Shown here piece by piece: positions 1 through 56,274 of a stretch of DNA of 56,274 nt. The notes beneath the pieces are model-generated. The model saw only the letters and a program-made list of their open reading frames with translations. It was not told the DNA's origin and ran no database searches. This stretch comes from Mesotaenium endlicherianum (taxonomy: Eukaryota): positions 62,733 to 119,006 of the forward strand of contig WELA01002181.1 of the NCBI GenBank assembly GCA_009602735.1, read 5' to 3'. The stretch's first letter is position 1. The number at the start of each line of letters is the position of its first letter. Both the position numbers and the translations under genes were made by a program.

Positions 1-1410
1 GCCCCTCCTCTCCCCTCCCCCTCCTTCCTGCCCCATCCACCTCCTGCTCCTCCTCCCGCTCCCCCTCCTGTCTCATCCTTCTCCTCCATCCTCGTCTCCC
101 TTCTTCCCGCCCCGTCCTCCTCCTGCTCCCGTTCCTCCTGATGCCTCCTCCTCCCCCTTTTTCAAGAACCTCGTTTCTCCCGCCTCAGCGCCTCCAAGGC
201 CCTCGTCTACCTCCTTCCTCCTCTGCCCCGCTGCCTCACATTGTCCCAGCCCTTTTTTCCCCCAGCTGGTCGGCGTCTGGTGGCGCCCAGTCCCGGTCCC
301 AGGCTTGTAGCTCAGTGAGAGCAGCACCAGGAGGAGGAGGAGGAACAGGGGCTAGTCTTAAATCCCGGATTTCGGATCCCGCCACATCTGTCGGCATTTG
401 GGAGCACTGGATGACCTATCGCGGTTTCAGCTTAGCTCGGGTTGTGCTGCTGCTGCTGCTGCTCATGCCCCCTGCTGGCAGGCAGCCGTGCGCTGCTGCT
501 GCCTCTGCTGCTTCTTACGGTGGTTGCTCCCATGCGCTTGTCTGCTTTCTTTTGGCGGGGGGGAGGGGTGGGGGTGGGCCGGNNNNNNNNNNNNNNNNNN
601 NNNNNNNNNNNNNNNNNNNNNNNNNNNNNNNNNNNNNNNNNNNNNNNNNNNNNNNNNNNNNNNNNNNNNNNNNNNNNNNNNNNNNNNNNNNNNNNNNNNN
701 NNNNNNNNNNNNNNNNNNNNNNNNNNNNNNNNNNNNNNNNNNNNNNNNNNNNNNNNNNNNNNNNNNNNNNNNNNNNNNNNNNNNNNNNNNNNNNNNNNNN
801 NNNNNNNNNNNNNNNNNNNNNNNNNNNNNNNNNNNNNNNNNNNNNNNNNNNNNNNNNNNNNNNNNNNNNNNNNNNNNNNNNNNNNNNNNNNNNNNNNNNN
901 NNNNNNNNNNNNNNNNNNNNNNNNNNCCCCCCCTTTTCCCCGGGGTCTGCCGTATCGGCATCCCCCTCTGCGCCTCTGGGTCTGCCAGATGAAAGGGCAC
1001 TGCAGGCACGCCTGCCTGCCCGACAGTGGTCTCTCACGCAGGCACGCACGCACGCATGCATGCGGCGCTCTGAGCCTCAGTGCACAAGATTGGAGCCTGG
1101 GAGCAGCCCTGCCGATTGGGCTCTGGGAGCTCGCGGCTCTGAATGAGTGGGAGTGGCATTGGCACGCTCCTACTCCTACGCGAGGAGCGGAGCTTGGAGC
1201 TGGGGCGCGGAGGGCACAGGCGGGACATACGCGGGAGGCTTAAGAAGAGGCTAGCCTCCTCTGTGGGGGCGAGCTGCTCTGCGCCAGGGTGGTGGGGTTG
1301 GGGGGTTGGGGGGGTCGTAGGGTGCCTGTGACGGACAGCGTGGAAGATTGCTGATGAGCGGAGCTGTGTCACTGGTGGTGGTGGTTTTTCTGGGGGGGGG
1401 GGATTTGCAG

Positions 1411-4400
1411 TCGGTGAGGATGGCGACGCTGGCGGTGGTGGCGTCGCACACCATCAATGGCGTGTCCACCATCCACACCAACCTCACCAAGACGCGCATG
1501 TTCACCGTCAGTCCCCCTCCCCCCCTCTTCCTCTTTCTCTCTCCCCTTCTCCCCATCCCTCTCTCGTGTGCTTGCGTGTGCACGCGCGTGCTCCCTCGCT
1601 CTCTCTCAGGAGTAAAGAGAGATTGCTCGGTGTGTTGACCCTCCTCCTGGCCAGAGCCGGCTCCACAACTGGCCACACCCTGCACCGCTCTCTTCCCCTT
1701 AGAAGTGACTATTGTAACCAGCCTTGAGCGAGGGGACAGCCTTCTTCTACAGGCCAGCGGTCGACCCTGGCGGCCTCTGCGGGCCTGTGTGCTCTCCCTC
1801 TCTTCTTTCCCCCGCCCTATCGCTCCCCCCTTCTCTCCCTCTCTCTCCTCCCCCCTCTTTGTATCTCTCCCTCTCTCTCCTCCCCCCTCTTTGTATCTCT
1901 CTCTCTCTCTCTNNNNNNNNNNNNNNNNNNNNNNNNNNNNNNNNNNNNNNNNNNNNNNNNNNNNNNNNNNNNNNNNNNNNNNNNNNNNNNNNNNNNNNNN
2001 NNNNNNNNNNNNNNNNNNNNNNNNNNNNNNNNNNNNNNNNNNNNNNNNNNNNNNNNNNNNNNNNNNNNNNNNNNNNNNNNNNNNNNNNNNNNNNNNNNNN
2101 NNNNNNNNNNNNNNNNNNNNNNNNNNNNNNNNNNNNNNNNNNNNNNNNNNNNNNNNNNNNNNNNNNNNNNNNNNNNNNNNNNNNNNNNNNNNNNNNNNNN
2201 NNNNNNNNNNNNNNNNNNNNNNNNNNNNNNNNNNNNNNNNNNNNNNNNNNNNNNNNNNNNNNNNNNNNNNNNNNNNNNNNNNNNNNNNNNNNNNNNNNNN
2301 NNNNNNNNNNNNNNNNNNNNNNNNNNNNNNNNNNNNNNNNNNNNNNNNNNNNNNNNNNNNNNNNNNNNNCCCCTTCTTTTCCCTGGGCCCCCGAATCGTG
2401 CGCAATCAATGCGCTGCACGTCCCCGTGCAGAACAGGGTCCTTGATTTGTTGACCGGCCAGCTGGCAAAGCCACGTGTCTCTCCCTCCCTCTCTGTCTTG
2501 CTAATCTCTTCTATCCTCCTCCCTCCCCCGCTCCCTCTCTTTCCCTCCCTCTCGGTGTGCTGCGCGCTGGCCTTCCCTCTTCAGCTGCACCGCACCCCGC
2601 CTTCACACTACCCACTCGACAGCCCTGCTGTTTGAACATCGGGGGGGAAGCGCAGCTTGTTGCGCACATATCCACCCCCGTGTGCACCTGTGCCTGTGCG
2701 CGTGTGCGTGTTTGGCCCGGAGATGCCTCTAAGCGTGTGGGCTGGAGTGTGTGCGTGGGCGTGGGCGTGGGCATGCTGGCTGGGGAGAGGGGAGCAGAGG
2801 CGGTGGCTGGCCTTCTGCAACCCGGGACTGGGCGACGTCATCACGCAGCGCCTGGGCACGGAGGCCTGGCTCACGGACCTGGACCTGCTGGCCGGCCTGC
2901 GCCAGCACGCCGACGACCCTCTGCTGCACCGCCAGTGGAACCTCGTGCGCTATCTCCCCTTTCCCCCCCTCCCCCCCCNNNNNNNNNNNNNNNNNNNNNN
3001 NNNNNNNNNNNNNNNNNNNNNNNNNNNNNNNNNNNNNNNNNNNNNNNNNNNNNNNNNNNNNNNNNNNNNNNNNNNNNNNNNNNNNNNNNNNNNNNNNNNN
3101 NNNNNNNNNNNNNNNNNNNNNNNNNNNNNNNNNNNNNNNNNNNNNNNNNNNNNNNNNNNNNNNNNNNNNNNNNNNNNNNNNNNNNNNNNNNNNNNNNNNN
3201 NNNNNNNNNNNNNNNNNNNNNNNNNNNNNNNNNNNNNNNNNNNNNNNNNNNNNNNNNNNNNNNNNNNNNNNNNNNNNNNNNNNNNNNNNNNNNNNNNNNN
3301 NNNNNNNNNNNNNNNNNNNNNNNNNNNNNNNNNNNNNNNNNGGGGGGGGGGCGGGGGGGCAGGCCCCTCAACGCTTAAAACCCAGAAGTGGGGGGGCTGT
3401 CGGGGTCAAGGGACCAACAAAGCGCTGACGGGCGAGCGGGGGCTGGGGAGGCGGCAGGTGAGCATCGACGCCATGTACGACATCCAGGTGAAGCGCATCC
3501 ACGAGTACAAGCGCCAGCTGCTCAACATGCTGGCCATCATCCACCGCTACGACTGCATCAAGGTCCTCTCCCTCTCCCCCTCGCCCCTGCTCCTGCCCCT
3601 GCTCCTGCTCCCGTTGTTGGACCTCCCCTTTTTCCCTCCATTGTGGCTGCTGCTTCTTCTCTTCCTGCTGGTCTCTGAATCCTTCCTGCTTCCTGCACGC
3701 CTCGTACTTAATGTGACACGCGTAGGCACATATGGATGGCCATGAGCACAGGCTGGTGTGCTTGCCTGCGTGGGTGCGTATGCACCACCACGACTCTGTG
3801 CGCGCTGCACGGGCGCAGTCCTCCTCTCTGCACAAAGGGTCGTGTCTCGAGAGAGCTGACGTGAGAACACCCCCTCGCGGCGCCTGGCGGCGGTGCTGGG
3901 GGCTGGGGCTGGGGCTGGGGCTGGGGCAGAACATGACGGCGGAGGAACGCAAGCACGTGGTGCCGCGCGTGTGCATCATCGGCGGCAAGGCCGCGCCCGG
4001 CTACGAGATGGCCAAGTGCATCATCAAGCTGGTGGACGCCGTGGGCCAGAAGATCAACAACGACCCCGACGTCGGCCACCTCCTCAAGCTCGTCGGCCAC
4101 CTTCCCTTGCCCCCCCTCCCCCTCCCCCTCCTCCNNNNNNNNNNNNNNNNNNNNNNNNNNNNNNNNNNNNNNNNNNNNNNNNNNNNNNNNNNNNNNNNNN
4201 NNNNNNNNNNNNNNNNNNNNNNNNNNNNNNNNNNNNNNNNNNNNNNNNNNNNNNNNNNNNNNNNNNNNNNNNNNNNNNNNNNNNNNNNNNNNNNNNNNNN
4301 NNNNNNNNNNNNNNNNNNNNNNNNNNNNNNNNNNNNNNNNNNNNNNNNNNNNNNNNNNNNNNNNNNNNNNNNNNNNNNNNNNNNNNNNNNNNNNNNNNNN

Positions 4401-7400
4401 NNNNNNNNNNNNNNNNNNNNNNNNNNNNNNNNNNNNNNNNNNNNNNNNNNNNNNNNNNNNNNNNNNNNNNNNNNNNNNNNNNNNNNNCTCCCCCTCCTCC
4501 TCCTCCCTCCCCCCAGGGCCGAATTAATCAGGAACAGAGTTGGTGTTGGAGAGTGTGTTCCAAAGCGTTCCCAAACTTCTGCTCTCCCCTCTTCTCTCCG
4601 AGACGATGAGCAGATAGGGTACTACAGGGTACTATATTACCATAAGCCAACCCTCTCCTCCCTCATCCCCTCCCCACAGATGAAAGCCTCGCCGTTCTGC
4701 TTTTGGGTAGAAGCATGTACCTTTGAGTGTCAGCCATGCCAGGAGCGGGCCTCACTGGGGACAGGCCGGGAGCCAGGCTTGCAGCATGCAGGAGTCTGGT
4801 TGCAGTAGCAGGCACGGGTTCTGGGGGAGGCGTGTGAGTGCACGTGGCCTTTCCCCAACCTTGTGGCGACAGCTGACCCATTGGGGAGGGCGAGTTGTGC
4901 CCTGCCAGGTGGCGCTCGTCCTCTGACCGCCTGGTGTAGCCCCTGCTGATCTTGTTGTGCTACAGAGAGAGCACTTGAGTATGCGTACATACGTCCGATG
5001 GCATCTGTGCAAGCCCTGTGCGTGTGACACCTGGCACGTGCATGTCTGTGTGCGACACGTGGCAGGTCTTTATTCCCGACTACAACGTGTCTGTCGCGGA
5101 GCTCATCATCCCGGCCAGCGACCTGTCCCAGCACATCAGGTGGGGACCTGACACGTGGCGCATGCAGCTCTTTATTTGGATACATACACACAGACACACA
5201 CACACACACACACACACAGTCATGCACTTTGCTTGTACTCACTTCAATGCAACTTCACATGCATACGCACTCCCTTCCACTGCTGTTCTTATTCTGTTGA
5301 CGGAGTATGAAGTAGCTTCCACCCCCTCCTTATGCAGCGCAGCCTTAGTGTTCTTCGGGCTGAGGTGAGATGAAAGGGCAGAGACAGGGCTGCCGCAAAT
5401 TGCGCTCTTAGTCAGTCAGTCAACCCTTGGCCTCGTCACCAGCACCGTGTCTTCAGCGGGACTCCCTGCCTCTCCCTGTGTCTGTGTGCGGTCGTCATGC
5501 ACGGCCTTTGTCAGGTGCAAGCTCCAGTTGGCAGTTGCGCAATTTGTTTTCCCCCTGGTGGCATGGGAGGCGCTTTCCCCCGCTACTGACGTATGATGGT
5601 GTCCGCAACAGATACAGACACAGAGGCGGAGGCAGAGGGGGAAGAAGAAGAGAGGCGCCTAACCACAGAATCTCAGTAGCTGCAGCAGCAGTAGCGCTAG
5701 CTCGCCGGACGATGTGCGCACGCGCTTATGTGTGTGCGCGTGTGTGAGTGAGTCTTCAGGCACCACCTGCCTGCCTGCCTGCCCTGCCTGCCTGCCTGCC
5801 TCCTCTGATTTGGAGCCGACTGTGTGGCTGGCTGTGGGGGAGCAGCCTGGCGGGCAACGAGGCGTCGGGAACGAGCAACATGAAGTTTGCGATGAACGGC
5901 TGCCTCATCCTGGGCACCCACGACGGCTCGACCGTCGAGATCCGCGAGGAGATAGGAGCCGAGAACATTGTACACACCTTCCCAGAGACACGCCCTCTCT
6001 GTTCCCCTTGTTCCAGTGTGCCCCCCGTCCGTCAGCTCTTCGCACCTGCATTGTGCTGTTAGTGTTGGGATACGTTGGTGCACACACACACACACACACA
6101 TGTTCCACACACAACACACACGCACACACGCAGACAGGCACACGCGCATGTATGCACGCGCACGCACGCTTACACACACGCACGCACATACACAGAGAGA
6201 GACAGGAATAAGTGGAAGAGAGGGAGTGGGAGAGATATTGTAAGTGCTCATTCTGCCCGAACTAGAGCCTGCAGCAATACGACTCTCGACCTGCATTTGC
6301 ATTTTTGTGAGGTGGAGGTACTTGCCCCTTTTATGCCCGCCTCTCTGCCATCACCCCATGGTCAAGAATCTGCCACTTGTCACGACTACCACTGGGGTAT
6401 TGCTGCATCTCTCATTGCGGACAGCAGCAGCAGCACCACAAGTGACCAGGCGGTTGCCCTTCAGACACTGAGAAAGGAGAGAAAAGCACGCTAAAGCCTG
6501 GTGCCATACGTTATCTGCATATCTTCGCTGCTGAACTCTCTCCCTCCTGAGCTCTCTCCCTCTGGACCTAATGCTTGCGTTGCCCCCCTGCTGCTCCTGG
6601 TGCTTGCTGCTGCGCAGTTCATCTTCGGCGTGAAGGCAGAGGCGGTCGCGGCCCTGAGGGAGGCCAGGCCTGGGCTTGTGCCCAGCCGCCGCTTCACCCG
6701 CGTCGTTGGGTACGTGCATGCGCCTGCGTTACTGCCGCGCTTCTCTCTGCCGGCAGCGGCGCGGCGGCACACCCCGTCTCCTGTCTCCTTCTGCATCTGC
6801 GTGTGCATGTTCATGCGCACCAAGCTTCTGCTACTGCTGCAGCAGCCGTGGGCACGAGCTCTCCAAGTCGGGCTCTCCGAAGCGTCCGCCTGCTCCTTTT
6901 CTCTCATCATCGCCTCAGCGGTGATTTCTTCTTCGCCCAGAGACTAAGCGCGCTCGGCTCAGAGCGAGGAAGCAAGGCAGAAGGTCCTGCTCGCTGAGGC
7001 GCTTCGCTGCTAAGGAGTCATAGTTAGCTAGCCAAGGGGCAGGGAAGTTTACGTTGCTCCTTTACTCTTCGTCGCGTCTCGTCTCGCCTCGTCTTGTTCC
7101 TGTCGCCTCCCTCATCCCTCTCATCCCTCTTCATCGCCTCTTGCCTGTCTTTGCCTCTCTCTGCAGCATGATAAGGAGCGGCTACTTCGGGTGGTCCGAG
7201 TACTTTGCCCAGCTGTGTGACGCGATCGACGGGCCAGGTGGCGACTTCTACCTGCTCGCCAACGACTTTCCCAGTTACCTGGAAGCCCAGGTATGCTTTC
7301 GCGCCCGCCCCTGCGCCCTTGCCTCTGACTCTGTCACTGCCAATGCTGCAGATGCGGGTATCACGGACGTGCTCGATGCTGGGACGTGCTTGGTGCTGCA

Positions 7401-7723
7401 AACGGAAAACGGCACTCGCAACTTTTGGCGTTCGCATGACAAGGCCCACATCATCGAATACGTTCATCGCCGCAAAGCCTACATGACGTGGTCTGGGCTT
7501 GTGCTCTGGTTGACATTCTTAGTTGGCATTGTCGAGGGTTGTTCTGTGGTGGCCGGCTGCGCTCCAACAGGCTGAGGTGGACAAGGCGTACGCTGACCGC
7601 ACGCGCTGGACGCGCTCGTCCATCATGAGCACGGCCGGTTCTGGAAAGTTTAGCAGTGACCGCACCATCAACCAGTACGCCACCGAGATCTGGGGCATCG
7701 AGCCGTGCACCCGCCCATTCTAA
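1411..7723 (+). CDS. Alpha-glucan (starch/glycogen) phosphorylase, 3' portion; 5' exons upstream of window or in gaps
   Basis: Exons 1411-1506, 2798-2944, 3458-3562, 3930-4091, 5066-5139, 5846-5969, 6618-6709, 7167-7290, 7571-7723(TAA), all GT-AG and phase-consistent. GT35 motifs: [51 protein letters not shown]-site [23 protein letters not shown]. At least two small exons are missing and probably lie in N gaps. Confidence 0.95.
3563..3929 (+). repeat. Phosphorylase intron with 5' (CCCTGC/TCCTGC)n tract and 3' (GGGGCT)n hexamer tract abutting the acceptor
   Basis: Hexamer repeats read directly at about 3583-3610 and 3895-3929. Confidence 0.85.
5183..5218. repeat. (AC)n microsatellite in phosphorylase intron
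   Basis: acacacagacacacacac... seen directly. Confidence 0.9.
6081..6195. repeat. Imperfect (AC)n/(ACGC)n microsatellite in phosphorylase intron
   Basis: Seen directly. Confidence 0.85.
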
Positions 7724-9790: not shown

Positions 9791-11538
9791 ATGGCGTCCA
9801 CAATGGCAGCCCTTTGCAACCAGACCATTGTAGCGTCAAGCTTGAGTGCATTGCCGCACACCAGCAACTGCAACTCTTTGAGGTGGGCATTTTATGAAGC
9901 TAGATAGGATTCTTGATCTCTTAAACTGGACTTTTTTGAGGTTTAGTGGATCCATCATTCCGGTATACAACTTCATTGGATTTGCAGTTCCAGGCTTTTT
10001 TGGGCTAAGCTAATGCTGGTGGTAGAATGTATCGTCATGAAAGTTCTGCGCGTTGCTGAGGTTTGGTCGTGGCAAATCGTTCATTGAGAATGTGAAATAA
10101 ATGCTTTGCCAACGCTTCACATATTCACCGAGCTTCGAAGTTTCTGCTCTGAGCAGGCAATCAGTGAAGTTTGCTCCTCTACGTCAACGCAACGCCGGCG
10201 TTATGTGCAAGGCTGAGAACGACCCCATTGGAGCTGTAAGTTCGTCAAAATGGCCCCAGGATCTCTTTAAGATAGAGAAGACCTTATGACACTAAGGAGT
10301 GTGAAGTAGTATGTAGCTCAGTAAATATAAGATTGATCTACTGCCTTCAAAGTTAATTGTGTAGAAAGTTGGTTGTGAGGACAGTTATCGTTTACATCAT
10401 GTTTTTTGACTTTTATGTGTCAAACTAAGTCGGAAAAAGAATGTACATGGGGGGGGGGGGAGACGTTTACATGAAAGTGAAGGGGCAATGAAGTGTCATA
10501 GTAGCAGGAGAAAAATTTCTTGAAAGGGACATCTGAGTCTTCAGTGTGTGCCATGATACAGGCAAAGGATCTAGTGTCTGGAACGAAGAACACTATTACG
10601 GAGGAGAGTGTTCGGAAGAACATGGAGCAGAACGAATCAGAGAAGCAGTCCGTTTTTGGTACAAAGCCAGTCAGCGGTTCATTTTACCCCCGCCCTGAGA
10701 ACGAGCGCCGTCCTGAGTTGGGTAACAAAAATTTTGGCAGCATCATGGCCTTCGATGGCCCTGGTCCAGAGACCATGAACGGCAGACTTGTAAGTGATCA
10801 TCAGCTTCAACATGTTGGTGTGCTTTTCCCTGTTGATTAAAGGTTTCTCAGAGGTAACACTTGTGAAATGTATTTGTTGGAGGAGCTGAATACTCTCAAA
10901 AAATTGGTTTTTGCTCTTTTCCTCGATACGCACAAAATAGCTGACTAGGCTTTCAATCTTTATTCAATACTGAACATTTGTGTGCAAACTCTGTAAAACT
11001 TTGCAGGCTATGCTTGGATTTGTCTGGGCCTTCTTTGCTGAGAAGTTGTCGGGAAAGCCTATCTTTGAGCAAGTGTTTGAGCCAGGCAGCCCAGGCCTCT
11101 TCTGGCTAATTGTTGCCACAAACTTGACCATCTTCGCCACCCTTGTGCCCATCTTTAATGGAGAGTCCCCAGACAGCAGGAGGTATGTCGCATCAACTCT
11201 GACTGGTACTTTCCAAGTATATTATGAATAGTCTTTCGACTCTAATTGAAGATATAGTTGTAGGAGGTATTGCTTAATTCACACTCTGGTAAATGGTGGA
11301 AAAAATTTTACATGTGAAATAATGAAAAGGGGTGAAATCTTTTGTGATTTTATATACTCGATCAGGAGCTAACTTGATTTAATGAATATGGAGCTAATGG
11401 GATGTGATGCATTCTTTTATGAGCAGCAATGGACCTTTCACCGCTCGTGCAGAGCGCTGGAATGGACGTATTGCAATGGTTGGCTTTGCTGGCCTCCTGG
11501 CTTTTGAGTACTTCACAGGCCGCGGATTCTTTGCTTAA
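9791..11538 (+). CDS. ELIP: Early light-induced protein (three-helix LHC-like protein) with plastid transit peptide
   Basis: Exons 9791-9882, 10157-10235, 10562-10789, 11007-11182, 11427-11538(TAA). Motifs IMAFDGPGPETMNGRL|AMLGF and FTARAERWNGRIAMVGF; Ser/Ala-rich N-terminus MASTMAAL. Confidence 0.92.
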
Positions 11539-12606
11539 AGCAAGAAACTCCTTTGTACCATAGCTGAAAAGTTGTACTACTAGAAATTCATTTTGGTGTA
11601 CAAATAGCTAGTTTAGTGTACCCTGTTACTTTTCTGAGCTGTTTGAAAGTGGAAGAGATTTTACAGTGAGATTTTGCAGTAAGTTTGTATTTGTACGTTG
11701 GAAGGTTTTCATATGAGAGTATTTTTCATTATCATCTTGTATGTAATTACCATTGACTTTTGTGACTGTCAGTTCCTAAAAGGCAACAAATAAGGGTTAC
11801 TACATGATTGCACTACAAATAAATTTTGCAAGTAGAAGTTTGCCCCTAAAAGGGGAAATAATTTTATAACTTGTGCATTTGGGTCATATAGAAAAAACTT
11901 ATTTTTTTCCTATGCACGTAGAAAACGCATGCATTTATATGCCATATGAATATTGTAATATAGAAATCGGCTTTTTATGGGGAATCAAAATCAAACTTGT
12001 GCATATTGTACAGTAAGTTGTGTATATATCCGGTAATACATTCGAATGTAGTGTGCAACTCTTACTTTTACATTGAAGTGGGTGACTAGTATAAGATTTG
12101 TCCCATACATCCCTACTTGAAATCTTGCACATTATCTAAATGCGAACCATTGCAGATTTTTCTTAGGATCCTCCTTCGCCACTATTTGCCACTGAGATAT
12201 GAGATGCATAAATAACATTTGCGTGAATTGCAGCGTATGTCTATTGGGTGTATTGAGCAGAACAGCTACTTTTGTGTTGCATAATTTGGATAATTACATG
12301 TCAATTCCGTACAATCATCATCCCTCATCACTTCAAATCTGGCCTATTATTAATAATACTTGAAAACCATGTTCCACTTTCTGCTGTGCCACAAGCTCAA
12401 ATTACATGAAAAGCAAAACTATGTACATGTGGTACAGTCTATATATAATAATACTAAATCGCCATCAACAATATTTAGAGTACATACATACACAAACCTT
12501 TTAGCCCTACTTTTATAATTATATCATACATTACAAAGAAATTTTCACTCCTGCTCTGCCATCTAAATGTCAGAAAGACATGTTCTAAAATGCTATATTG
12601 CCCTAG

Positions 12607-13339
12607 CTACACTTCAATTTCTTTCTCAATCTGTAAGTAGACGTTTTTGGCTTCACTCATTTCAATACTACCCCTCGATGTTGCATTCCCTTCTGCATCT
12701 TCCTGCATAGTGCACTCAAAGAGGAGACTGATGAGTATAATGGGTGGCCTGAAAATTACTGGCAGCACAAAGAAGTGTTTGCGTACAAAGAAGTGCTGGG
12801 CAAAGGCCCGGTAATGACAGAACCAACTGGTGAAGTATCTATCAGCAGAACAAGTGGCAGACATGGCAGAGAAGGAAGAGTATATACCAAAGCAGCCTGA
12901 AGATCCTCCATAGCTCGCTCAAGTCGCTTTCGGCAATCAGGAATCATCATGCGTGTCTCTTCAACAACAGAATCCTGTCAGCAATGCAAGGAAATTGACT
13001 CATAAGTTTTTAGTTGGTACAAGTGTTAACGAGCTATGCTGAAAGACCCAACAGTAGAAAACATCTCTACCACTTTAAGATCTCGTCATGGCTCGTATGG
13101 TGGTATCACTGCTAAGACTAACAATAATAGTCAGCCGACCTTGAGGAGCCTGATTACAAACATTATAAGCCCAATGTGTTACCAACCTGTTGCTTCAAGT
13201 CATGAGCCTCACGCCCTGCAGCTTTCATGGTCTCTGCCCTAGCCTGCTCCTGCTCGAGCTCTTTCTCATAAGTATGTAGCTCTTTAAGAATACGCTTACA
13301 AACACTCGCCTTTACCTTAAGCGCCTTACTAATATCCAT
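12607..13339 (-). CDS. TBCA: Tubulin-specific chaperone A (tubulin folding cofactor A), 111 aa
   Basis: Exons 13339-13187, 12974-12888, 12702-12607. Sequence LKVKASVCKRILKELHTYEKE...DLKQQ|DSVVEETRMMIPDCRKRLE. Confidence 0.93.
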
Positions 13340-17844: not shown

Positions 17845-17891
<47 letters not shown>

Positions 17892-18156: not shown

Positions 18157-18249
<93 letters not shown>

Positions 18250-19818: not shown

Positions 19819-19905
<87 letters not shown>

Positions 19906-42910: not shown

Positions 42911-44890
42911 ATGCTTCCATCAAGATGCTTAGCGTATTTGATGGTCGTGTTTACGTCTATACACGCAGTCACTGCAGTTACAGTGAAGAAGGGCCAAGGC
43001 AGTACCCAGTTCACCCAAGATGTAATGTTCTGGCTCATCAATAGTATCACTGTGGATCGGTCGTGTTTCAGAACAGAGCAGGACCCTGCTCGGTGGTGTG
43101 TGAATAGGAATACTGGAAGATGGCAGCGCATGTTTCAGTGTCATAGTGCACTTGAGTATTCTACACCATGACACCATAATGGTGTAGCACACCCAGGCAT
43201 TATTTGAAATATTAGTCGTGATGCATTTCCTGGAAATGCACATAGTTACATACTGCCACCCGTGATGCATATTTTCCTTGGGATGTGTGCAGTTTGCTCA
43301 ATGTAGCAGGACATGCGTTGCCAAAGACTGCAATAGTAAGTCATTTCATATCTCAGAAGGAACTACTTGCATATGTGCAGTGGACTTATTAATAGCAGCT
43401 ACTGGAAGCTGTCATTTTGGTGATGCCCTGATGATGTACCGCTTTGGCTCTTAAATGCGTTGCTGTGTGTGCGCAGAACACCCTTCAGTCCACTAACCTT
43501 TATAGTGTCTCCATCAAGTTACTCTACTACTGTGCGTGCGTTGAGCTGATTTCAACGTGGCGGTTGGTCCTAAAACAGATTGTTGTGGGAGCTCTAGCAG
43601 GACTGTTGTGCAAAGCATGGTTTGAGCCAGAAGTATGAAACCTGTTCAGAAAGTGCTCTAGTTAAACTAAGGATTTAGACCTGAGTACGCTGGCGAAGGT
43701 CGACATCCACCTCCGCTCCTTCAGTCACAGACGGACATGCTAGCCGAAGTCACATACTCGGGTGCTTTTCTGAGGCTGGAGATGGGAGCTACTAGTTTAG
43801 CTGAGCAACAACAATTGTTGCAATGTACTTGTTGAGCTGATTGTAAATGAACATATGAAACGAAATTGGTGTGTTGCAGCATTCACGTTGAGGTATGGGA
43901 AGTACTGTGGTGTAGGCCACGGTGGCTGCATAGGAGAGGAGCCATGCGATGACCTCGACAGCTGTTGCAAAGGTCACGATGACTGCGTGATGGAGTATGG
44001 TATGTTTCATTTGACTACTACATCTGCAACCTTCCACATCATGTCTCACCTTCATTGGAGTTCTTCTTAGGACTAGAGGTTGCTGATCCCGTTGAGAGTG
44101 CATCAGTGATGAAGTTTGGTCTCATCCTTGACTCAGGCCATCACATCATCGTGCTAGAATCATGTAGTGAGCACACATCACAAAGAGTCTGCTTGACAGA
44201 GGTCTAGTCTCACGGCTCTCAGCTCGGGGCTTTGGTGACTTACACGGCGACCTGGCAGCAACAGCTGGCAAAGAGTTTCTAGCGGTTGTGACAGCATGGC
44301 CAGAGCTACAGCCCCAGTGAGGGGGAATTCAGTGGGATTGTGCGTCTTGTAAGTTGCGCAATGTGCATATACTCTTGCAATATTCACACATGCAATCACA
44401 TTCACCAGCCAACTCTGTTTTCTTATTCATACATATGGCTCTCTTAGGGCACTAGGTTTCAAATTTATGGTAAGAGAACCAGGCCTACGCTATATAGACC
44501 TGAATATAAGGAAATGTGCGACAGGAGCTGTTACTTTCTGCTTACCGTACTCAACAAGGTCATTGTGGACAGGGAGATTGTGCAAGAAGCTGAACGGCCT
44601 TCAGCCTCTAGACAATCAAAATTGTCCCCACATGTGGTCAATGTGTCTGGAAGAAGACTCTTGTGACTTGTCAAAATTTGCCGAACCTTGAAGAGTGTGC
44701 CTTGTGCCTCTTGTGCTATTTCACAGGTATGAACAATGTGGAGTGCCATCTGGATTTCAAGGAGTGCATGCAGAGAGTGGCAAAGAGCAAGAAGAAAGGC
44801 TTCTCCAAAACCTGCCCTTATTCCGTTGTTATCCCCACAATGATGCAAGGGATGGACCTATCAATCATGTTATCACAAGCCATGCAGTAG
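42911..44890 (+). CDS. Secretory phospholipase A2 (plant group XI), ~145 aa
   Basis: Exons 42911-43021 (signal peptide), 43293-43335 (CSRTCVAKDCN), 43880-43999 (Ca loop RYGKYCG, catalytic DSCCKGHDDC), 44727-44890(TAG); phases are consistent. Confidence 0.9.
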
Positions 44891-47374: not shown

Positions 47375-50300
47375 ATGACACGCCAAGGACATCTTTCTGC
47401 TGTCCTTCATGCAGTTCTAGCTCAGGTGGATGCCTGGTAGCTTTATAATATCGCAGCCATACCTCTACTTTCAGCTTGGGTGTCTTTCATGAGCTCATGC
47501 ACGAGTGCTATTTGTTTTGGCAGGCCCTCATATGTTGGACAATTTCGAGCACCATCATCCCATCAGCGGCATGGGAGCTGTCTTTTTCCGAACCTCTCAT
47601 GTATAAGTGATGCACTTACTTCTAACACTCGTCATTTCATCCTGACTTGCAAGTCATACTTTGCCTCACTGACTTTGCTTGAAGCCTTAAATTGTGGACT
47701 CCCTCCTTGTGTTTTTCTCGTCTTTTATGCTCTGCCTTGTCCGCACATATGCAATTGAGACGTAATTCGATGATTTGACCTTGGCTGCCGCGCATATGCA
47801 GGCCGGTCATCCATGAGAGCGGGTACTGCTCCATGTACGACACTTGTGGGCAGCGCGAGGATGGCAAGTATCTGAACTGCCCTCTCAACGTGCCAGCTGT
47901 CCAGGTACGACCAATGCTCAACCAGTCGTAACAGTAACCATTTCATGCATGCATATTCTTTCTCCCTCCCTCCTGCTGCAGGACCCCGCAACTGTCTCCT
48001 GGGATCCCTTCCCCCATTCCAACCCTTCCTTCTTTCCTAGACGGAGAGAAGCTTGTTTATCAAGGGTGCAGCAGGACAGGTGGGATAGCATCCGGCAGCC
48101 CTCTGTGTAGCTTCTGAGCTCTGATGGATGGTGTGGTTGTGGGTGAGTGACACGTGGCGGGTGCAGCCCACTCGTCAGCTGTCAGCCAAGATCCAGAGCC
48201 TCTGCCCGACAATCACGGGCAGCATCTGCTGCACGGAGCAGCAATTTGACATCCTCCATGACCAGGTCAAGCAGGTGCTGCATCGCCGCCCTCGCCTCGC
48301 CCTGCCCTTGATCTCTTTCCCCAGTTGGCCCGTTCCCTCGCTATAACGACTCCGGACCTCACTGGCTTGAGCCTTCTAAAATGACAGTTCTTTCCAACAA
48401 CCCTCCCCCGTACCGGGGTGAGGAGGAGGGGGGGAGGGGGAGGGGGGATGGGAGACATTAATTAGTGTCGGCATTGTCTCCTTCACTAAGCAAATTCATT
48501 GTCCACGGACAGAATTCAACAGTGTCTCTCAGCCTTGCACAAAGAGGAGGTCAAGCATTTCGGTAGATGCGGTGCGTGCGTCAGCAATAGGCAGCTCGCC
48601 TTTGAGTTTGACCTTTCACTCTCGCTTTTGCTCCCTCGTTCCACCGTGTGAGGTTGCTTCCAGTCCAGTACTAGCAGTTGCTTGTATGGTCCTTCAGATT
48701 ACGCACTGTACTTTGTGTTGCTATAAACTTTCCCTTGTATTGGGAGGGAGGCAGGGAGGGAGGGAGAGAGAGAGTGATGGCTTCAGTTTCCTGCCTGCAT
48801 GAGCTCGCCGTGACGTCAATCATGCGCACTCCGCAACGCGAGTGCCGAGCGTGTTTGCGCTTGACGGCCACGCACGACTGGTTAGGAGTGACCCGCAACT
48901 CGNGGGGTGTAGGGGGGAAGGGCGGGGGGTGGTTGTGCAAGGTGCGGCGTGCTGGCTGCTTGCTGGCAAGTTGGCTAAGACAGCACCTCCAAAAGGGGGG
49001 CGAGGGAAGAGAGGGTGCAGATGACACCAGCAGGGACACGCCCATTCTTCCTTCACGTTCGCATATGAGCTGTGCCTCGTAGGCGGGCGTGCTTCGTTCG
49101 AAGGAATTCTTGGACATGGTCGATCCGGGCTCCCGAAGAGGAAGCTCTGCGCAATCGATGAAGATTCCAATCCTGCTTGCAAATTGAACGAGGGAAGGAG
49201 TTAGTTCGTCATGTTTTGCGGGAGGAGTGTGCGCTGAAGTTGGGCTTGAGGGTCCTGTCTGCTCGCCGGCTCTGCATGCTCACGCCTGAGTGCCGCCGAG
49301 AGCACGCCTAAGGCTTGCCGCTTGGTCTGTGCTTGGCCGGCTGACTGGCCGGCCAGTCCGCTGGCCGACTTGACTGACCGACGAGACGACAGATGGGAGC
49401 GTGATGGACAGGCAAAGTGGCGCACAGTCGAATGGAGGGGTATGCTTACTGACCAATTGACAGACAGGAGAGCGTCTGTTCTTTGTATTTTCTTAAATTT
49501 TCCTATTTTATTTGGGGGGGGGGGGCTTGCGGCGGGCGCAGGCGGTGCCCTTTCTGGTGGGGTGCCCCGCGTGCCTGAGGAACTTCCTGACATTCTTCTG
49601 CACGCTGGCGTGCTCGCCCTCGCAAAGCTTGTTCGTCAATGTCACCGCCACTGCCCCGGTCCGCCACTCACCCATCCTCCCTCTCCTCTCTGTTCGTCCC
49701 CGCTCACTCCCTTTCTCTCCCCCCCCCCTCTTCCCCTCCCTCTCTCCCTCCCACGTTCCCACCCGCCCCGTTCCCCCCCTCCCCTCTTCCTCAGCGTCCC
49801 CGCCTGATCTTGAGCTGAGAACCATTGAGCTTGTTGTCGCAGGGGGGTGTCATCACAGCGTGCGTGCGCGCGCGCGTGTCCCTTTTCTTGACGTCTGAGT
49901 CCCTCTGTCTGGGTCCTCCTGGTGGCGGCGGCACCCCCCCTCCAGCTGTCTCAAGGTCGGATATCAGCAGGCCAACTCGTGACTGGGCAGGAGATACGCC
50001 GGTTGAAGAGCGCATGTGTGGGAGGCCACTTGCAAAGCCAGAGAGAGAGAGAGAGTGGGAGGGCGGAGAGTGGGAGGGCAGGAGGGAGGGAGGGAGGAAG
50101 GGAGAACTTCTGGATCTCTGCATGAGCCAGTGGGCCTTCTCGGAAAGACGGAGGCGGGAAGGGTGCTGCCGCTGCACACTCTCAGGCAGGAGGACTCTGA
50201 GCAGCCGCACACAGCCTCCCGCGGAAAGAGCGGACGGCCATTCCTCTCACTCATCCGACCTCTCCCCAGACCTCTTCTCCTCCCCCCTCCCTCCCCCCCT

Positions 50301-53300
50301 TTCCCCTCCTCTTCTTCCGGCTGCTTCTTGTGCTCCTGCTCCTTTGCATGCGGCCATCGCTTGCAGAGCCCTTGCCGCACATACTTTAAAGTCGGGAGAG
50401 GGGAGCGAGAGGTGATGGGGTCTCTATCTCTGCTGTTTTCTGCTCACCTCCACACTGTGGCAGGCGCAGGTGCAGGTTCAAAGCGCATGCTGGTCCTTCC
50501 CCATGCCCCTCCCCCTGCCCCTGAACCTGCCTCTGCCTGCATTTAGTCATGCTTGGGAGCCCTCCACGTGTCATGCCACTGTTGCGAGAGCGAGCGAGAC
50601 GTGCTCGAGACGGCTCTGGTGTCCGGTCCACTCCCGCTGACTGCACTTGCGAGCAGCCCCCCTGTGTGCCACTGTCAGAAAGAGCAACGCGGAGGTAGAG
50701 AGAGAGAGGAATGCAGGCAGGCGCAGGGCTCTCTCATGATGCTTAATCTCTCCCTCTCCCTCTCGTCCTGGCCCTCCGTCCGCGCCTGCCCCCCCCCCCC
50801 CCCCCCCCCNNNNNNNNNNNNNNNNNNNNNNNNNNNNNNNNNNNNNNNNNNNNNNNNNNNNNNNNNNNNNNNNNNNNNNNNNNNNNNNNNNNNNNNNNNN
50901 NNNNNNNNNNNNNNNNNNNNNCCCTCCCCTCCCCCCGCCCCTACGCCCTCAAATGTAAGCGTTGCTCAAGAGGGGCAGCTTCCTCCTCGAATCTCCTGCC
51001 ACTCCATACCGTGCGCTGTGAGCCATGCACGGTGTGGGTCCATGCAAAACACGCCCCGTTTCTTCTCCTCGGTTTGTTCCTCGGTTCCCTTGAAGCCCGG
51101 AAACAACACTGGATCTACCTCCCTCGAGCATCTTCTCTCCTCGCCACCTTCTGCCCTTCATGACTCGGGTACGGCTCTGGCCTCTCATATGCTGACACGT
51201 GGCGTCCAAGTATTGCTTACTGGAGCCTCGGGCAGGGGTGCGGCTCCTGGCTGTAATCCTGGGCGTGGGATTTAGGGCTTCGGGCTCTAGAGGGAAGAGG
51301 GAATCAAATGTGGGGAGTCCTAAATTCTAGAGGAATCTCGAATCTGTACACACACGCGCATGCACCCTGCAGGAGGGAGAGGAAGAGCAATGCCAGACGC
51401 GCTCGCACGCTCACACATTCGCGCGCCCTTCTCGTCACGCGCATGCGCGCACCGCCCGGGGGGGGGGGGGGTACAGACTGGTTCAAATTCATGGGGCAGA
51501 AGGCGGACCCCTACATGCTGGGCTCGCCCTACGCCATCTCCTTCCCCGACGCCAGCAGCCTGCCACCTGGCAGCCCCATGGAGCCCGTCGACTTCCCCGT
51601 CGCCTCGTGCTCTGACGCGGCGCTCGTGTGCTCGTGCGGCGACTGCCCCTCGGCCAACGGCTGCGAGGAGCCCGTGCCGCCGCCACCTGGCAATCCCCAA
51701 GGCTGCCAGCTCCACTTCCTGGGATATTCTGTGAGCGGGCTCCCACCACCCCTCCTTGTGCCAGGTGTCAATGGCAGGCAGCGCACCGTGTGGTGGCCGC
51801 TCGAGTCCTGTCGGGTCTACGACGTAGTCTTGCTGTGTCTCTCTGTCTGCGTGGAGAAGGTTGTGAGGTTTCCAGAGGTGGAAGACTGGTTCCAACTCAC
51901 AATGCCCCACCACAAGCGTGTGGAATGTGATGTCTATGTGGTGGCCTCACTGTGCAAGGCTGGTGTGACGTGGTGGTAAGCTATGACAACTTCTTGTTGC
52001 TTATGTGTTTCAAGTGGCTATGAAAGCGCTTCATAGACTTGAGATGTGTTTAAGCATGTGTGGTAGTAAGCAAACAGGGAGCACCGCACAACCTGCAGAG
52101 GCGGGCAGAGGGGCGTGCTTCTCATGTGCTCTCCTGTGCATGATGGGGGCTGCTGATCAGGCGTATTGACAACGAGGCTCTTTCTTTCCTTTTGAGTGAT
52201 CGGTATGTGTGCACAAGGGTGTGGCAGCGGCCACGAGTGAGCGCCACATATATAGTCTGTGACATTGCCGCTCTAAAAGAGAAATAGAGTGCAAGCCAGT
52301 CAGAAGCGCATCGAAGGTGTCACTTTGGAAGTCGTGTGACGATTGGAAGGAGCCAATGACGTGTATCAGGCAGTTCACAAGGCAAAAAAAAGATGGCTTG
52401 AATGGGCACAATGAGTTCCGTATTATGAGAAACGAGGGGTCACAGAAAGGGAGGGGGGCATTGCAGGCCGCAGGACAGTGGGAGGACTCACGGCTGTCAC
52501 TGTCCCAATATAGGTCGGTCTCGTATCTCAGAGGGCATCGTTCATATGGGGGCATGCACGGGCGGTTGGTGAGCGGGCGGCAGGCACGGTGCGGTGACGT
52601 GGCGCTATACGTCATCTTCATCGCCTACGTGGCGGCGGTGGTGGCGGTGTACAGCAGGTGGGCAGCCGCCCAGCAGAAGGAGGACCCCACCGCCGAAGCA
52701 GCAGAGCCGCTTCTGGCATCCTCAGAGGGCGCCAGGGAGGCGCATGCCACCACTCCTGATGCTGCTGCGGGTGGTGGGGCTGCCAGGGCAACATCTTCAA
52801 GTGAGAGGGTAGGTGTTGCCGTCCCTGTGCGTGCAGGGCTCCCTGGAACGGCTTGGCTGGTCGCTGCCGGCAGCTGCTTGTCTCCTGGTGGGGGGGGTGT
52901 TGGGAGCGCTCTCACAGAGGCCTCAATGTCTGTATTCCATGACTTACCTGCACTCCTTGCTAGATATTGTCAGGCATGGGGGCTCCTGTCGAAGATGTTT
53001 GATTGAAGGGAGGAGCAGGAGGGAATGGAAGGAGGAGAGAGGTGTTTGGGGGGAGGAGTACAAGACGGTTGAGAGATCCTGTCGGGACGGGGGGAGAAGA
53101 GCGAGAGAGATGTTTGGAGAGAGGGTGGAGGGAGAAGAGGGAGAGCGACATCTGGCGCATGAGGGGGGGATGTAGCAAAATCGGTGACTCCCTTAGCCCA
53201 AGTGCCGCATCTGGGTCACGGGCAGCTGTTGGACTGCTGGGAAGCAGCAGAGTGCAGGTCCTGTTATGCGTGTGCTCAAAGGGAAGTGCTGCAAGCATCA

Positions 53301-55149
53301 GCTAGGGGCTGAAGGGATGGGTGGTGGCGGCTCACGGCCTTGAGCAGGAGGGGCGCGAGGGCGACGAGGTCGAGGCTGGCGCGCAGAAGGCCGCCCCAAC
53401 CTCTGGGCTGCAGCAGCTCCCGCCCTTCCAGCTGCACCTCCGCCGGTGGTTCATGTGCGCTGCGCTCTCCCCCTCATACGCTCAACTCCCCTCCCTTGCT
53501 GCCTCTTCCTCTCATATACACATGCTGCTGCCCAGAAGGTGAGCCAGATCTCGTGTGGAGCATGTCCGCACACATATCCGCCTTGTGGGGTGGTGCCAGC
53601 TGTTGACTGGCTGGAGAAGGTACTAATCCCCTGATGACTTACCAACTCTGCTGCCAGCGTGTGTCTCTCCTACTCCTTGCCTTTCCCTTCCTCTCTCCTC
53701 CCTCCCTCCCTTCCTCCACGGCTTCCCAGTGACCAAGCTGTGTTGGCAGCCCTCACAGCTGGCGCACTCCAGGCCAGCTGTGCGGCGCCACCTGTCCGGC
53801 CGTGACTCAGGGGCGCGGCTGAGGCTGAGGGGGACGCAGGTGGCAGGGCAAGTGGGTTGCCACACATCGCGGCTTGGTGCTTGTCGCGGCAGTGGTGGTG
53901 GTGCTGCTGCTCAGCCTGGGCATGACGCGCTTCCGCGTGGAGACCAGCCCCGCCAAAGTACGGCCTCCTCTTTCCCCATGCCCACGCACACCTGCAAAGA
54001 TTTAGTTGCGCTTATATTCGTCTCTATTTCTTGTGTGTGCATACGCGCGTGTCTTCTCTCCCTCCATCTGTGCTGCTGTGTCTCCGTGTTGCAGGTGCTT
54101 TTTGCAATGCCTCCCTCCCAACGAGGCTACATGAAGAAGGATCAGAACGCACCATTCGTGCGCTTGGGACCTCTGGAAGAGTACAGGCAGAGAGAGAGGG
54201 AGGGGAGAGAGAAAGTTGCCCAAGCGGCGTCGTTTGAGTGCTGCACACGCTTGGCAAAGGAAGACAGACGCCGGATAAATGCTTCGCATCAGCACAAGGC
54301 AGTGCCCCTGCCCCTCGCCCGCCTCTCCCCGCACCTCGACCTCCTCCCCGTGGCTGACAAGCGGCGCTGCCCACTGGGCTCCCTTGTGATGGGTGAATGT
54401 GAGTGCAGCTGTGGGTGGGCGCCGCAAGCCAGGCGGCGAGGGAGAAGGCTATCTACGACGCCCACCTGGGCCCCTTCTACCGCATCGAGCAGGCTCGTTG
54501 CTGCCAGCCCCCTTGCCCCTCCGCCCCCCCGCCCCCCCAATTTGCATGAAAGGCGAAGCAAGAAGAAGCATGTACTTAAGCTCCTAGCTCTAGGCTGGCT
54601 CAATGATGACGATGATGATGACGATGATGATGCACAGGTGTTGGGGCCGTGCCAGCTCATGTGACTTGTTTCTTCTCCTTCCTGCCCGCCGACCCTAGGC
54701 TCTCAGATGGCATATTGTGTTGCCAGCGTGTCGCACGTAAATCTCCACATACATTTGCCCCTCTGTCCTCGAGGGGGATTGAAGCCCGGCCATCAAGTTG
54801 CACCTCTCTCTGTAGGTCGTGTCTCCTCTCGTACTTTTGCACGCACGCGCGTGCGTCTGTGCGTGTTTTTTGTGTGCGCGTGCGCGTGCGTGTGTGTCTC
54901 TGTGCGTGTGTGCGTGTGCGCCTTTACATGGGCATCAATCGGTGATATAGGCCAGCTTGGCCTTGCGCCCTCCCACTACCCTCCTCTGCCAGCACTCTCC
55001 TGCATTGCACCATGGTGACGCTCATGGGGCATGGGGAGGGAGTGGGGGCGCAGCTGATCATCGGGACAAAGCCCGCGGGGCCAGGGCAGGCAGCGCCCGC
55101 CATCGTGACGGACGACAACCTGCAGCTCCTCTTCACTCTGCAGGCCAAG
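47375..55149 (+). CDS. NPC1: Niemann-Pick C1-like sterol transporter, 5' part (incomplete at window end)
   Basis: Exons 47375-47425, 47524-47606, 47802-47904, 48167-48274, 49542-49658, [missing exon], 51477-51730, 52584-52808, 53348-53454, 53840-53957, 54409-54492, 55054-55149. Motifs GYCSMYDTCGQR, CCTEQQF, GCPACLRNF, CSCGDC, FRVETSP.|LWV, PFYRIEQ|LII. The first two exons and the 53348 acceptor are less certain. Confidence 0.92.
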
Positions 55150-56274
55150 GTGGCTATGCGCCCCTCCTCTCTTTCTCCCCCTCCCCACCCGCCCCCCCCC
55201 CCAATGAAAGCCATTCCNGCTTGGGACCTCTGGAAGAGTACAGGCAGAGAGAGAGGGAGGGGAGAGAGAAAGTTGCCCAAGCGGCGTCGTTTGAGTGCTG
55301 CACACGCTTGGCAAAGGAAGACAGACGCCGGATAAATGCTTCGCATCAGCACAAGGCAGTGCCCCTGCCCCTCGCCCGCCTCTCCCCGCACCTCGACCTC
55401 CTCCCCGTGGCTGACAAGCGGCGCTGCCCACTGGGCTCCCTTGTGATGGGTGAATGTGAGTGCAGCTGTGGGTGGGCGCCGCAAGCCAGGCGGCGAGGGA
55501 GAAGGCTATCTACGACGCCCACCTGGGCCCCTTCTACCGCATCGAGCAGGCTCGTTGCTGCCAGCCCCCTTGCCCCTCCGCCCCCCCGCCCCCCCAATTT
55601 GCATGAAAGGCGAAGCAAGAAGAAGCATGTACTTAAGCTCCTAGCTCTAGGCTGGCTCAATGATGACGATGATGATGACGATGATGATGCACAGGTGTTG
55701 GGGCCGTGCCAGCTCATGTGACTTGTTTCTTCTCCTTCCTGCCCGCCGACCCTAGGCTCTCAGATGGCATATTGTGTTGCCAGCGTGTCGCACGTAAATC
55801 TCCACATACATTTGCCCCTCTGTCCTCGAGGGGGATTGAAGCCCGGCCATCAAGTTGCACCTCTCTCTGTAGGTCGTGTCTCCTCTCGTACTTTTGCACG
55901 CACGCGCGTGCGTCTGTGCGTGTTTTTTGTGTGCGCGTGCGCGTGCGTGTGTGTCTCTGTGCGTGTGTGCGTGTGCGCCTTTACATGGGCATCAATCGGT
56001 GATATAGGCCAGCTTGGCCTTGCGCCCTCCCACTACCCTCCTCTGCCAGCACTCTCCTGCATTGCACCATGGTGACGCTCATGGGGCATGGGGAGGGAGT
56101 GGGGGCGCAGCTGATCATCGGGACAAAGCCCGCGGGGCCAGGGCAGGCAGCGCCCGCCATCGTGACGGACGACAACCTGCAGCTCCTCTTCACTCTGCAG
56201 GCCAAGGTGGCTATGCGCCCCTCCTCTCTTTCTCCCCCTCCCCACCCGCCCCCCCCCCCAATGAAAGCCATTCC
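54162..56274. repeat. Apparently identical 1056-bp tandem duplication (54162-55217 = 55219-56274) split by one N; probable assembly artefact
   Basis: ORF tracks repeat at offset 1057, there is a single N at 55218, and the window ends exactly at the end of copy 2. Confidence 0.9.

What the first reader, a model, noticed from the sequence alone, without database searches (positions are those of the whole stretch)
1380..55217. Inverted-polarity introns: C/pyrimidine tract after the donor, G/purine tract before the acceptor
Seen: in phosphorylase, XPD, NPC1 and the middle of eIF3h, most introns start with C/CT-rich runs (e.g. after 1507, 2945, 3563, 4092, 18816, 49659, 55150; minus strand below 35737, 35405, 34560, 31988, 31542). 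They end G-rich with no polypyrimidine tract (e.g. tggggggggggatttgcag 1410, ggggctggggcag 3929, ggggggggttgacag 19256, G-run+tacag 51476). The skew follows transcription direction and flips strand in XPD, so it is not a replication skew. Established: canonical U2 introns use a 3' pyrimidine/U-rich tract bound by U2AF65, and fish introns with complementary repeats at their ends can splice via RNA structure with less need for U2AF2. Inference: this lineage may use C-tract:G-tract pairing (or tract-binding proteins) to bring splice sites together, a distinct splicing code.
Basis: partly seen in the sequence, partly recalled or inferred. Interest (0 to 1): 0.9.

Follow-up and report, generated by a model that had tools for sequence, protein, structure and literature searches.

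The report
C/G halos around algal splice sites
In GC-rich genes of the alga Mesotaenium, the bases on both sides of each intron start are C-rich and those on both sides of each intron end are G-rich, silent codon positions included, in place of the usual pyrimidine tract; this likely marks each splice site for an ordinary spliceosome rather than zipping an intron's two ends together.

Summary
The window is Mesotaenium endlicherianum. All 16 cited coordinates are splice sites in my gene models. In 29 GC-rich introns, 27 start C>G and 24 end G>C, and 1 has a pyrimidine tract at the acceptor. Corrections: the 3' tract is G-rich and A-poor, and C...G is its own reverse complement, so the 'flip' in XPD says nothing about direction. 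New: the skew crosses into exons. At four-fold silent sites C/(C+G) is 0.30 after acceptors, 0.77 before donors and 0.51 mid-exon (p 2e-17). Acceptors are strict RCAG, with CTRAY branch-like motifs upstream; GAG is tolerated and other AGs are excluded. Native intron ends pair no better than GC-matched swaps (P 0.28-0.37), while flanks of the same exon do (P 0.003-0.011). Best reading: a site-by-site composition signal read by a U2-type spliceosome. Intron bridging is not supported. Partial precedents exist (Ectocarpus, fungi, REPA G tracts); ten searches found no description for this alga. The scan noted a different U/A 'inverted polarity' in Bonamia. One window only.

The parts
1411..7723 (+). 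Alpha-glucan phosphorylase, 3' part: exons 1411-1506, 2798-2944, 3458-3562, 3930-4091, 5066-5139, 5846-5969, 6618-6709, 7167-7290, 7571-7723. Two exons are missing and likely lie in gaps 1913-2369 and 2979-3341. 8 of 8 donors C>G, 7 of 9 acceptors G>C; 6617 and 7166 keep pyrimidine tracts.
13871..20602 (+). eIF3h, 12 exons and 11 introns; intron GC rises from 0.44-0.47 to 0.65 mid-gene and the skew rises with it
   Evidence: no RNA laid here
29292..36549 (-). XPD/Rad3 helicase, 9 introns; 9 of 9 donors C>G, 7 of 9 acceptors G>C; silent sites 7C/36G at exon starts and 36C/5G at exon ends
47802..55149 (+). NPC1, 5' part; one exon missing, likely in gap 50810-50921; GC donor at 54493; exons 52584-52808 and 53348-53454 have the weakest support
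35489..35737 (-). RNA-confirmed polar intron: C-rich after the donor, G-rich before the acceptor, with upstream AAG and GAG skipped
   Evidence: (joint in 4 of 4 runs)
30333..31054 (-). Second RNA-confirmed polar intron of XPD
3894..3965 (+). Example acceptor halo: GGGGCT repeats before CAG at 3929, then the first 36 bases of the exon
4056..4134 (+). Example donor halo: C-ending codons before the donor at 4092, C runs after it
25330..28265 (+). Snf7 gene; 5 RNA-confirmed introns of 41-51% GC with weak skew (comparison set)
37730..40034 (+). Amino-acid transporter; 2 RNA-confirmed introns
43022..44726 (+). Three RNA-confirmed AT-rich introns of a small Cys-rich gene (secretory phospholipase A2-like; label recalled, Pfam did not confirm it)
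9791..13339 (.). LHC-like gene (+, 4 introns) and TBCA (-, 2 introns): AT-rich comparison introns, modelled from open frames

Best explanation
In this alga's GC-rich genes each donor sits in a C-rich zone and each acceptor in a G-rich zone that reach about 35 bases into the exon as well as the intron, and these zones likely act as site-by-site recognition signals for an ordinary U2-type spliceosome rather than as paired arms. Shown: introns are GT/GC-AG; acceptors are RCAG; CTRAY motifs are enriched 27-74 bases upstream; the G zone fills the position of the pyrimidine tract; GAG is tolerated there while CAG, AAG and TAG are excluded. Shown: as intron GC rises, G stays near 17% after donors and C near 20% before acceptors, and the whole gain goes to the other base. 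Inferred: selection caps G around donors and C around acceptors, and local GC pressure fills in the permitted base. Inferred: the acceptor is found from the branch point and a strict RCAG with little need for a pyrimidine tract. Predicted: at donors the C skew weakens local folding and removes GT decoys. Inferred, and the weakest step: at acceptors a G/U-preferring factor (an altered U2AF large subunit, or SR or hnRNP proteins) favours G.
For: Silent four-fold sites: 53C/121G after acceptors, 115C/34G before donors, 233C/225G mid-exon. Odds ratio 16 after stratifying by codon family and next base; same direction in 8 of 8 codon families and 26 of 29 exons; fades by 36-59 bases. It holds where no GT, CAG or CpG is at stake (17C/40G against 40C/13G, p 1.7e-6). 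Acceptor: C at -3 in 53 of 54, purine at -4 in 54 of 54; CTRAY in 23 of 54 against 36 of 398 interior windows. Skew is -0.01 upstream of the CTRAY and -0.35 between it and the AG (n 23, p 0.0004); in the last 30 bases GAG 43, CAG 5, AAG 2, TAG 1, against about 32, 32, 23, 15 expected. Slopes on interior GC: after donors C 1.35, G 0.06; before acceptors G 1.18, C 0.07. Skew alone separates true from decoy sites, AUC 0.90 for donors and 0.77 for acceptors. Donor windows fold at -19.2 against -28.9 kcal/mol when C and G are equalised (31 of 33). The 5' and 3' profiles are not mirror images: C skew lasts beyond +100, G skew stops near -36.
Against: No reader protein was examined and no U2AF sequence was obtained. 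Simple decoy bans do not reproduce the skew: banning GT gives +0.17 of the observed +0.49, and banning CAG/AAG/TAG gives +0.09, the wrong sign. The G zone does not clearly weaken folding (-28.9 against -30.1, p 0.054), and a C-rich acceptor would fold much less (-21.7); the donor 9-mer is not more unpaired (0.40 against 0.41). Intron-side and exon-side skews of the same site do not covary. Flanks of one exon pair better than GC-matched swaps, which a purely site-by-site signal explains only through shared local GC. 31 of 54 acceptors have no CTRAY, and branch points are not mapped. One 56-kb window, picked because it stood out.
Confidence: 0.5

Rival explanations
1. DNA-level origin: exon-centred chromatin or a strand-symmetric mutation or repair bias lays down G upstream and C downstream of each exon, with no role in splicing.
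For: The pattern is its own reverse complement. It is antisymmetric around the exon, silent sites included. Tract strengths covary more across exons (rho 0.38-0.48) than across introns (0.12-0.16). Within 26 bases the two skews mirror each other (sum 0.01).
Against: The zones track each splice site whatever the exon length (43-812 bases), with neutral interiors. Mirror symmetry fails at 47-106 bases (p 0.01). The G zone begins downstream of CTRAY motifs, though the far-versus-near test was inconclusive. No nucleosome or polymorphism data were available.
Confidence: 0.18
2. Exon definition by pairing: the G zone at an acceptor pairs with the C zone at the next donor and folds the exon into a hairpin that brings its two splice sites together.
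For: Upstream intron end and downstream intron start of the same exon pair better than GC-matched swaps (n 44, P 0.003-0.011). Last acceptors lack G skew (8 sites, p 0.019) and first coding donors lack C skew (7 sites, p 0.007) after a GC fit.
Against: Covariation is not significant after removing distal GC (r 0.16, p 0.29), and the difference from the cross-intron value includes zero. Not better than dinucleotide shuffles over all 44 exons (p 0.28; p 0.033 in 26 GC-rich ones). Several geometries were tried. The first XPD donor is strongly C-rich after an 812-base coding exon. Flank GC correlates across exons in human as a known confound (PMC2945786, passages). Such a stem would be expected to hide both sites (inference).
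Confidence: 0.15
3. One reading: generic C-tract:G-tract pairing across the intron bridges the splice sites and lowers the need for U2AF, as AC/GT repeats do in fish.
For: By composition the two ends pair better than interior windows (-27.5 against -19.1 kcal/mol, n 27, p 0.003). The acceptor tract is missing in 28 of 29 GC-rich introns. A swap test cannot exclude generic pairing.
Against: No native advantage in GC class, gene or GC bins; no advantage over shuffles; no covariation across the intron (49 introns can only detect a fairly large correlation). It does not by itself predict the exon-side skew, and exon end with next exon start shows no native advantage either (P 0.37).
Confidence: 0.12
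4. Artefact of assembly, sequencing or my annotation.
For: Many C and G runs abut N gaps, and 1056 bases are duplicated exactly at the end of the window. 36 of 49 introns lack RNA support here.
Against: Gap-free introns show the same skew, silent coding sites show it, and two polar introns are RNA-confirmed.
Confidence: 0.02

Closest known systems
[quoted passage not shown] 2016, PMC4691745; first 10,000 characters and passages read)
   Same: Complementary compositions at the two intron ends; the acceptor tract is replaced by a G/U-rich stretch.
   Different: Fish repeats co-occur across introns and not exons, and fold better than shuffles; neither holds here. The human arrangement has the opposite polarity: 0 of 49 introns have it, and 5 of 49 have the CCC...GGG mirror.
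Antisymmetric C/G use at exon ends in Ectocarpus (Wu et al. 2013, PMC3787667; passages)
   Same: At four-fold sites C is avoided at exon 5' ends and G at 3' ends, the same direction as here.
   Different: Described as 'somewhat' antisymmetric, and Ectocarpus keeps a classical 3' pyrimidine tract. Here the skew is strong and continues into the intron.
REPA G tracts before the 3' AG (Nguyen and Xie 2019, PMC6339879; passages and Table S3 rows)
   Same: GGG close to the AG, linked to distant branch points and CTGAC.
   Different: A minority class tied to alternative exons, with a pyrimidine tract upstream: 1.0% of acceptors in Arabidopsis, 1.7% Chlamydomonas, 3.1% Physcomitrella, 5.9% Ostreococcus. 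In this window 18 of 54 fit (my reading of their definition), in core coding exons and with no tract upstream.
Fungal introns with 5'-located pyrimidine tracts (Fusarium, PMC5677156, passages; S. pombe, PMC8624252, passages)
   Same: Pyrimidine tract near the donor rather than between branch point and AG; U2AF recruitment without a recognisable tract is described.
   Different: Those tracts are defined by U content; the passages read report no G zone at the acceptor and no exon-side skew.
Weak folding at splice sites in fungi (Zafrir and Tuller 2015, PMC4574748; passages)
   Same: The donor-side C skew lowers predicted folding.
   Different: There it goes with lower GC near the sites; here GC stays high and is skewed, and the acceptor side gains little.

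Membership tests
U2-type spliceosomal introns | GT-AG or GC-AG ends with a U1-type donor | tested here: met
   52 GT and 1 GC of 53 donors, G at +5 in 38; AG in 54 of 54; 13 joints in RNA
U2-type spliceosomal introns | Branch-point motif upstream of the acceptor | tested here: met
   CTRAY in 23 of 54 against 9% of interior windows, p 7e-11; motif enrichment only, no lariats
U2-type spliceosomal introns | Pyrimidine tract between branch point and AG (typical, not universal) | tested here: not met
   1 of 29 GC-rich introns reaches 70% pyrimidine; mean 41%
Structured bridging introns (Lin et al. 2016) | [quoted passage not shown] | tested here: not met
   Cross-intron partial r about 0.0-0.05; cross-exon higher but not significant after GC; small sample
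Structured bridging introns (Lin et al. 2016) | Native sequence folds better than dinucleotide shuffles | tested here: not met
   End duplexes only, not whole introns: p 0.23 and 0.46
Structured bridging introns (Lin et al. 2016) | Compensatory rescue and U2AF2 independence | not testable with these tools
   Needs minigenes and knock-down
REPA G-tract acceptors | At least 5 purines at -10..-3 and GGG at -15..-3 | tested here: met
   18 of 54 acceptors
REPA G-tract acceptors | Pyrimidine tract upstream, separated from the AG by the G tract | tested here: not met
   At -37 to -86, C 0.29-0.32 and T 0.25-0.27, like the interior
REPA G-tract acceptors | Association with alternative exons | tested here: inconclusive
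   RNA depth on XPD was low and 14 joints were not shown
Introner-type repeat introns | Introns share sequence as copies of one element | tested here: not met
   Self-BLAST at E 1e-20 finds only the terminal duplication and a poly-C run; no Rfam match

The most novel reading that the evidence does not exclude
The algal sisters of land plants read splice sites in GC-rich genes by an exon-bracketing code, G around the acceptor and C around the donor, that is strong enough to set synonymous codon choice. It would be read by a G/U-specific 3' splice-site factor or by the exon folding on itself, with no pyrimidine tract at all.
Probability: 0.25. Interest if true: 0.8.

Novelty: new variant of a known kind. 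Interest (0 to 1): 0.58.

Why it matters
How spliceosomes find acceptors without a pyrimidine tract, and how plant-lineage genes mark introns when intron and exon GC are nearly level (0.60 against 0.63 here), are open questions. This genome offers a strong, testable signal that also governs silent codon choice near exon ends (odds ratio 16). That would bias codon-usage studies, gene prediction and transgene design in Zygnematophyceae. A weaker skew in the same direction in land-plant-like XPD loci hints at a latent streptophyte trait amplified by high GC.

Tried and rejected
No whole genome is held, so no genome-wide test was possible. No RNA holder was listed as such; raw-read runs of the same species label were laid on 25001-45000 only, so Pho, eIF3h and NPC1 boundaries lack RNA support. 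One search used a wrong frame and found nothing; one search found no solved-structure match for a short eIF3h exon. Intron-specific end pairing: rejected. Accessibility as the cause of the G zone: rejected. Plain decoy avoidance as the whole cause: rejected. Constant pyrimidine or G+U fraction with U simply swapped: rejected, both rise with GC. Repeat-element origin: no shared intron sequence. Comparators: of 80 loci, 15 had three or more matched segments. I modelled L001, L004 and L067 and tried 13 more, of which 11 gave 1-3 introns; these were too few and mostly AT-rich, and the L040 'introns' scored poorly. The L067 model contains stops and is unreliable. U2AF65, U2AF35 and SF1 were not examined because no tool gave their sequences; a plant U2AF65B survey does not mention Mesotaenium (PMC12027700, passages).
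Full report
Source. XPD exon 1 and a phosphorylase exon are 100% identical to proteins labelled jgi/Mesen1. I recall that label as Mesotaenium endlicherianum, a Zygnematophyceae alga (lineage). No genome is held, so everything rests on this window.

Gene models. Nine spliced genes were modelled with open frames: 53 donors, 54 acceptors and 49 complete introns, median 424 bases. Pfam supports eIF3h, Snf7, TBCA, the LHC-like gene, the transporter and NPC1; the PLA2 label is recalled. RNA-seq laid on 25001-45000 confirms 13 introns exactly, two of them strongly polar XPD introns (15 rows shown, 14 not shown). Three exons are missing between modelled ones and most likely lie in N gaps, so those donors and acceptors were not paired.

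Observation. All 16 cited sites are splice sites in the models. Over 49 introns, 40 start C>G and 35 end G>C; the polarity of 0.59 is reached by 0 of 5000 random draws. In the 29 introns of 54% GC or more (cut chosen after seeing the data) the skew is about +0.5 at +7 to +46 and decays slowly past +100. It is about -0.45 at -26 to -5 and flat beyond -37. The 3' zone is G-rich and A-poor. The pattern does not flip with XPD on the + strand, because C...G is its own reverse complement; only T>A follows transcription.

The skew straddles the splice sites. At four-fold silent sites in Pho, XPD, eIF3h and NPC1, C/(C+G) is 0.30 in the first 36 bases after an acceptor, 0.77 in the last 36 before a donor and 0.51 mid-exon (p 2e-17). 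It holds in 8 of 8 codon families and 26 of 29 exons, with an odds ratio of 16 after stratifying by next base, and in contexts where no GT, CAG or CpG is at stake. As GC rises, G after donors and C before acceptors stay flat and the other base takes the gain.

Acceptor anatomy. C at -3 in 53 of 54 and a purine at -4 in 54 of 54; CTRAY in 23 of 54 at -27 to -74, against 9% of interior windows. The G skew lies between that motif and the AG, and GAG is tolerated there while CAG, AAG and TAG are nearly absent. This fits selection of the first usable AG after the branch point (inference from established splicing knowledge). AG avoidance is reported as a general force on this zone (PMC10946897, abstract and section 3.6), but my simulation shows it cannot make the zone G-rich.

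Pairing. Intron ends pair better than interior windows by composition. Native ends beat swaps only when GC classes are mixed (P 0.002; 47 of 49 introns, two with N dropped). They do not within GC class (P 0.21), gene (P 0.145) or GC bin (P 0.28-0.37), nor against shuffles, and tract strengths do not covary across introns. Across exons native flanks do beat GC-matched swaps (P 0.003-0.011), and terminal sites lack the skew. But the covariation is not significant once distal GC is removed, several geometries were tried, and shared local GC can explain it. In zebrafish the repeats co-occur across introns and not exons (PMC4691745), so these are not members of that class on the tests I could run.

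Folding. Equalising C and G at equal GC strengthens folding around donors (-19.2 to -28.9 kcal/mol, 31 of 33) but hardly around acceptors (-28.9 to -30.1, n 36), and a C-rich acceptor would be more open. Accessibility can therefore help explain the C zone but not the G zone, which remains the unexplained step.

Other genomes. Land-plant-like XPD loci L001 (10 introns) and L004 (9; nearly the same sequence, so not independent) have about 42% intron GC and a weaker skew in the same direction: +0.25 at the 5' end, -0.23 and -0.30 at the 3' end. Silent sites lean the same way (p 0.039 and 0.3). By the REPA definition 25 of 54 acceptors here are purine-rich and 18 also hold GGG, against 6.0% and 1.7% in Chlamydomonas and 13.6% and 3.1% in Physcomitrella (PMC6339879 Table S3). 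The window was selected for standing out, so these shares are not genome values.

Mechanism. Most likely (0.5) a site-by-site composition signal for a U2-type spliceosome: selection caps G around donors and C around acceptors, GC pressure fills in the permitted base, and a branch point plus strict RCAG stand in for the pyrimidine tract. The caps and motifs are shown; selection and the reading proteins are inferred. A G-preferring U2AF derivative has a precedent in Drosophila LS2 (named in a passage of PMC6339879; its specificity is recalled). Rivals: DNA-level origin 0.18, cross-exon pairing 0.15, intron bridging 0.12, artefact 0.02.

Novelty. Ten searches found no description of this pattern in Mesotaenium or Zygnematophyceae. 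The main text of a 2023 Mesotaenium annotation paper mentions 'intron' once, in methods (PMC10505561, passages; supplements not seen). A plant intron-composition paper has no occurrence of 'skew' (PMC4684703, passages). The original genome paper (recalled as Cell 2019) was not read, and subscription journals are largely outside the library. The parts have precedents: exon-end antisymmetry in Ectocarpus, 5' tracts in fungi, G tracts at acceptors, and the opposite polarity in human. Their union at this strength appears undescribed. Earlier notes of this scan hold nothing on this genome and a different U-rich/A-rich case in Bonamia (unchecked). Verdict: real, a new variant of a known kind, interest 0.58.

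Noticed in passing
window 29292-29639 (-): RNA-confirmed intron in the XPD 3' UTR, with its donor 110 bases after the stop codon; such transcripts are often nonsense-mediated-decay targets (recalled).
   Followed up: partly
window 43257-43373 (+): Intron flanks of the 43-base exon 43293-43335 are complementary (-20.7 kcal/mol against -9.5 for shuffles) and are predicted to close a hairpin over the exon; both flanking introns are spliced in RNA.
   Followed up: partly
window 54162-55217 and 55219-56274: Exact 1056-base tandem duplication split by one N, covering two NPC1 exons; likely an assembly artefact.
   Followed up: partly
window 54493: GC-AG intron donor in NPC1, inferred from homologue alignment.
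   Followed up: partly
window 13871-20602: Intron GC peaks mid-gene in eIF3h (0.44-0.47 to 0.65 to 0.52), while intergenic DNA and short genes are AT-rich; not the 5'-high gradient described for rice.
   Followed up: no
window 33394-33418 and 34561-34577 (-): The public model P0001 lacks 14 XPD residues that the homologue P0003 has and that the GT-AG junction 34560/33419 restores.
   Followed up: partly
window acceptors 2797, 3457, 3929, 32114, 35159, 55053 and nine donors: Five acceptors (3457, 3929, 35159, 32114, 55053) carry G-quadruplex-type motifs and nine donors carry the C-run mirror; 10 of the 12 N gaps abut C/G runs or CT repeats, so such exons may often be lost from short-read assemblies.
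   Followed up: no
window 21407-24451 (-): Intronless 1014-residue PWWP-domain gene with no C excess at silent sites along its length (C/(C+G) 0.34-0.49).
   Followed up: partly
window 41009-43009: Stranded RNA reads show minus-strand transcription just upstream of the PLA2-like gene; no gene was modelled there.
   Followed up: no
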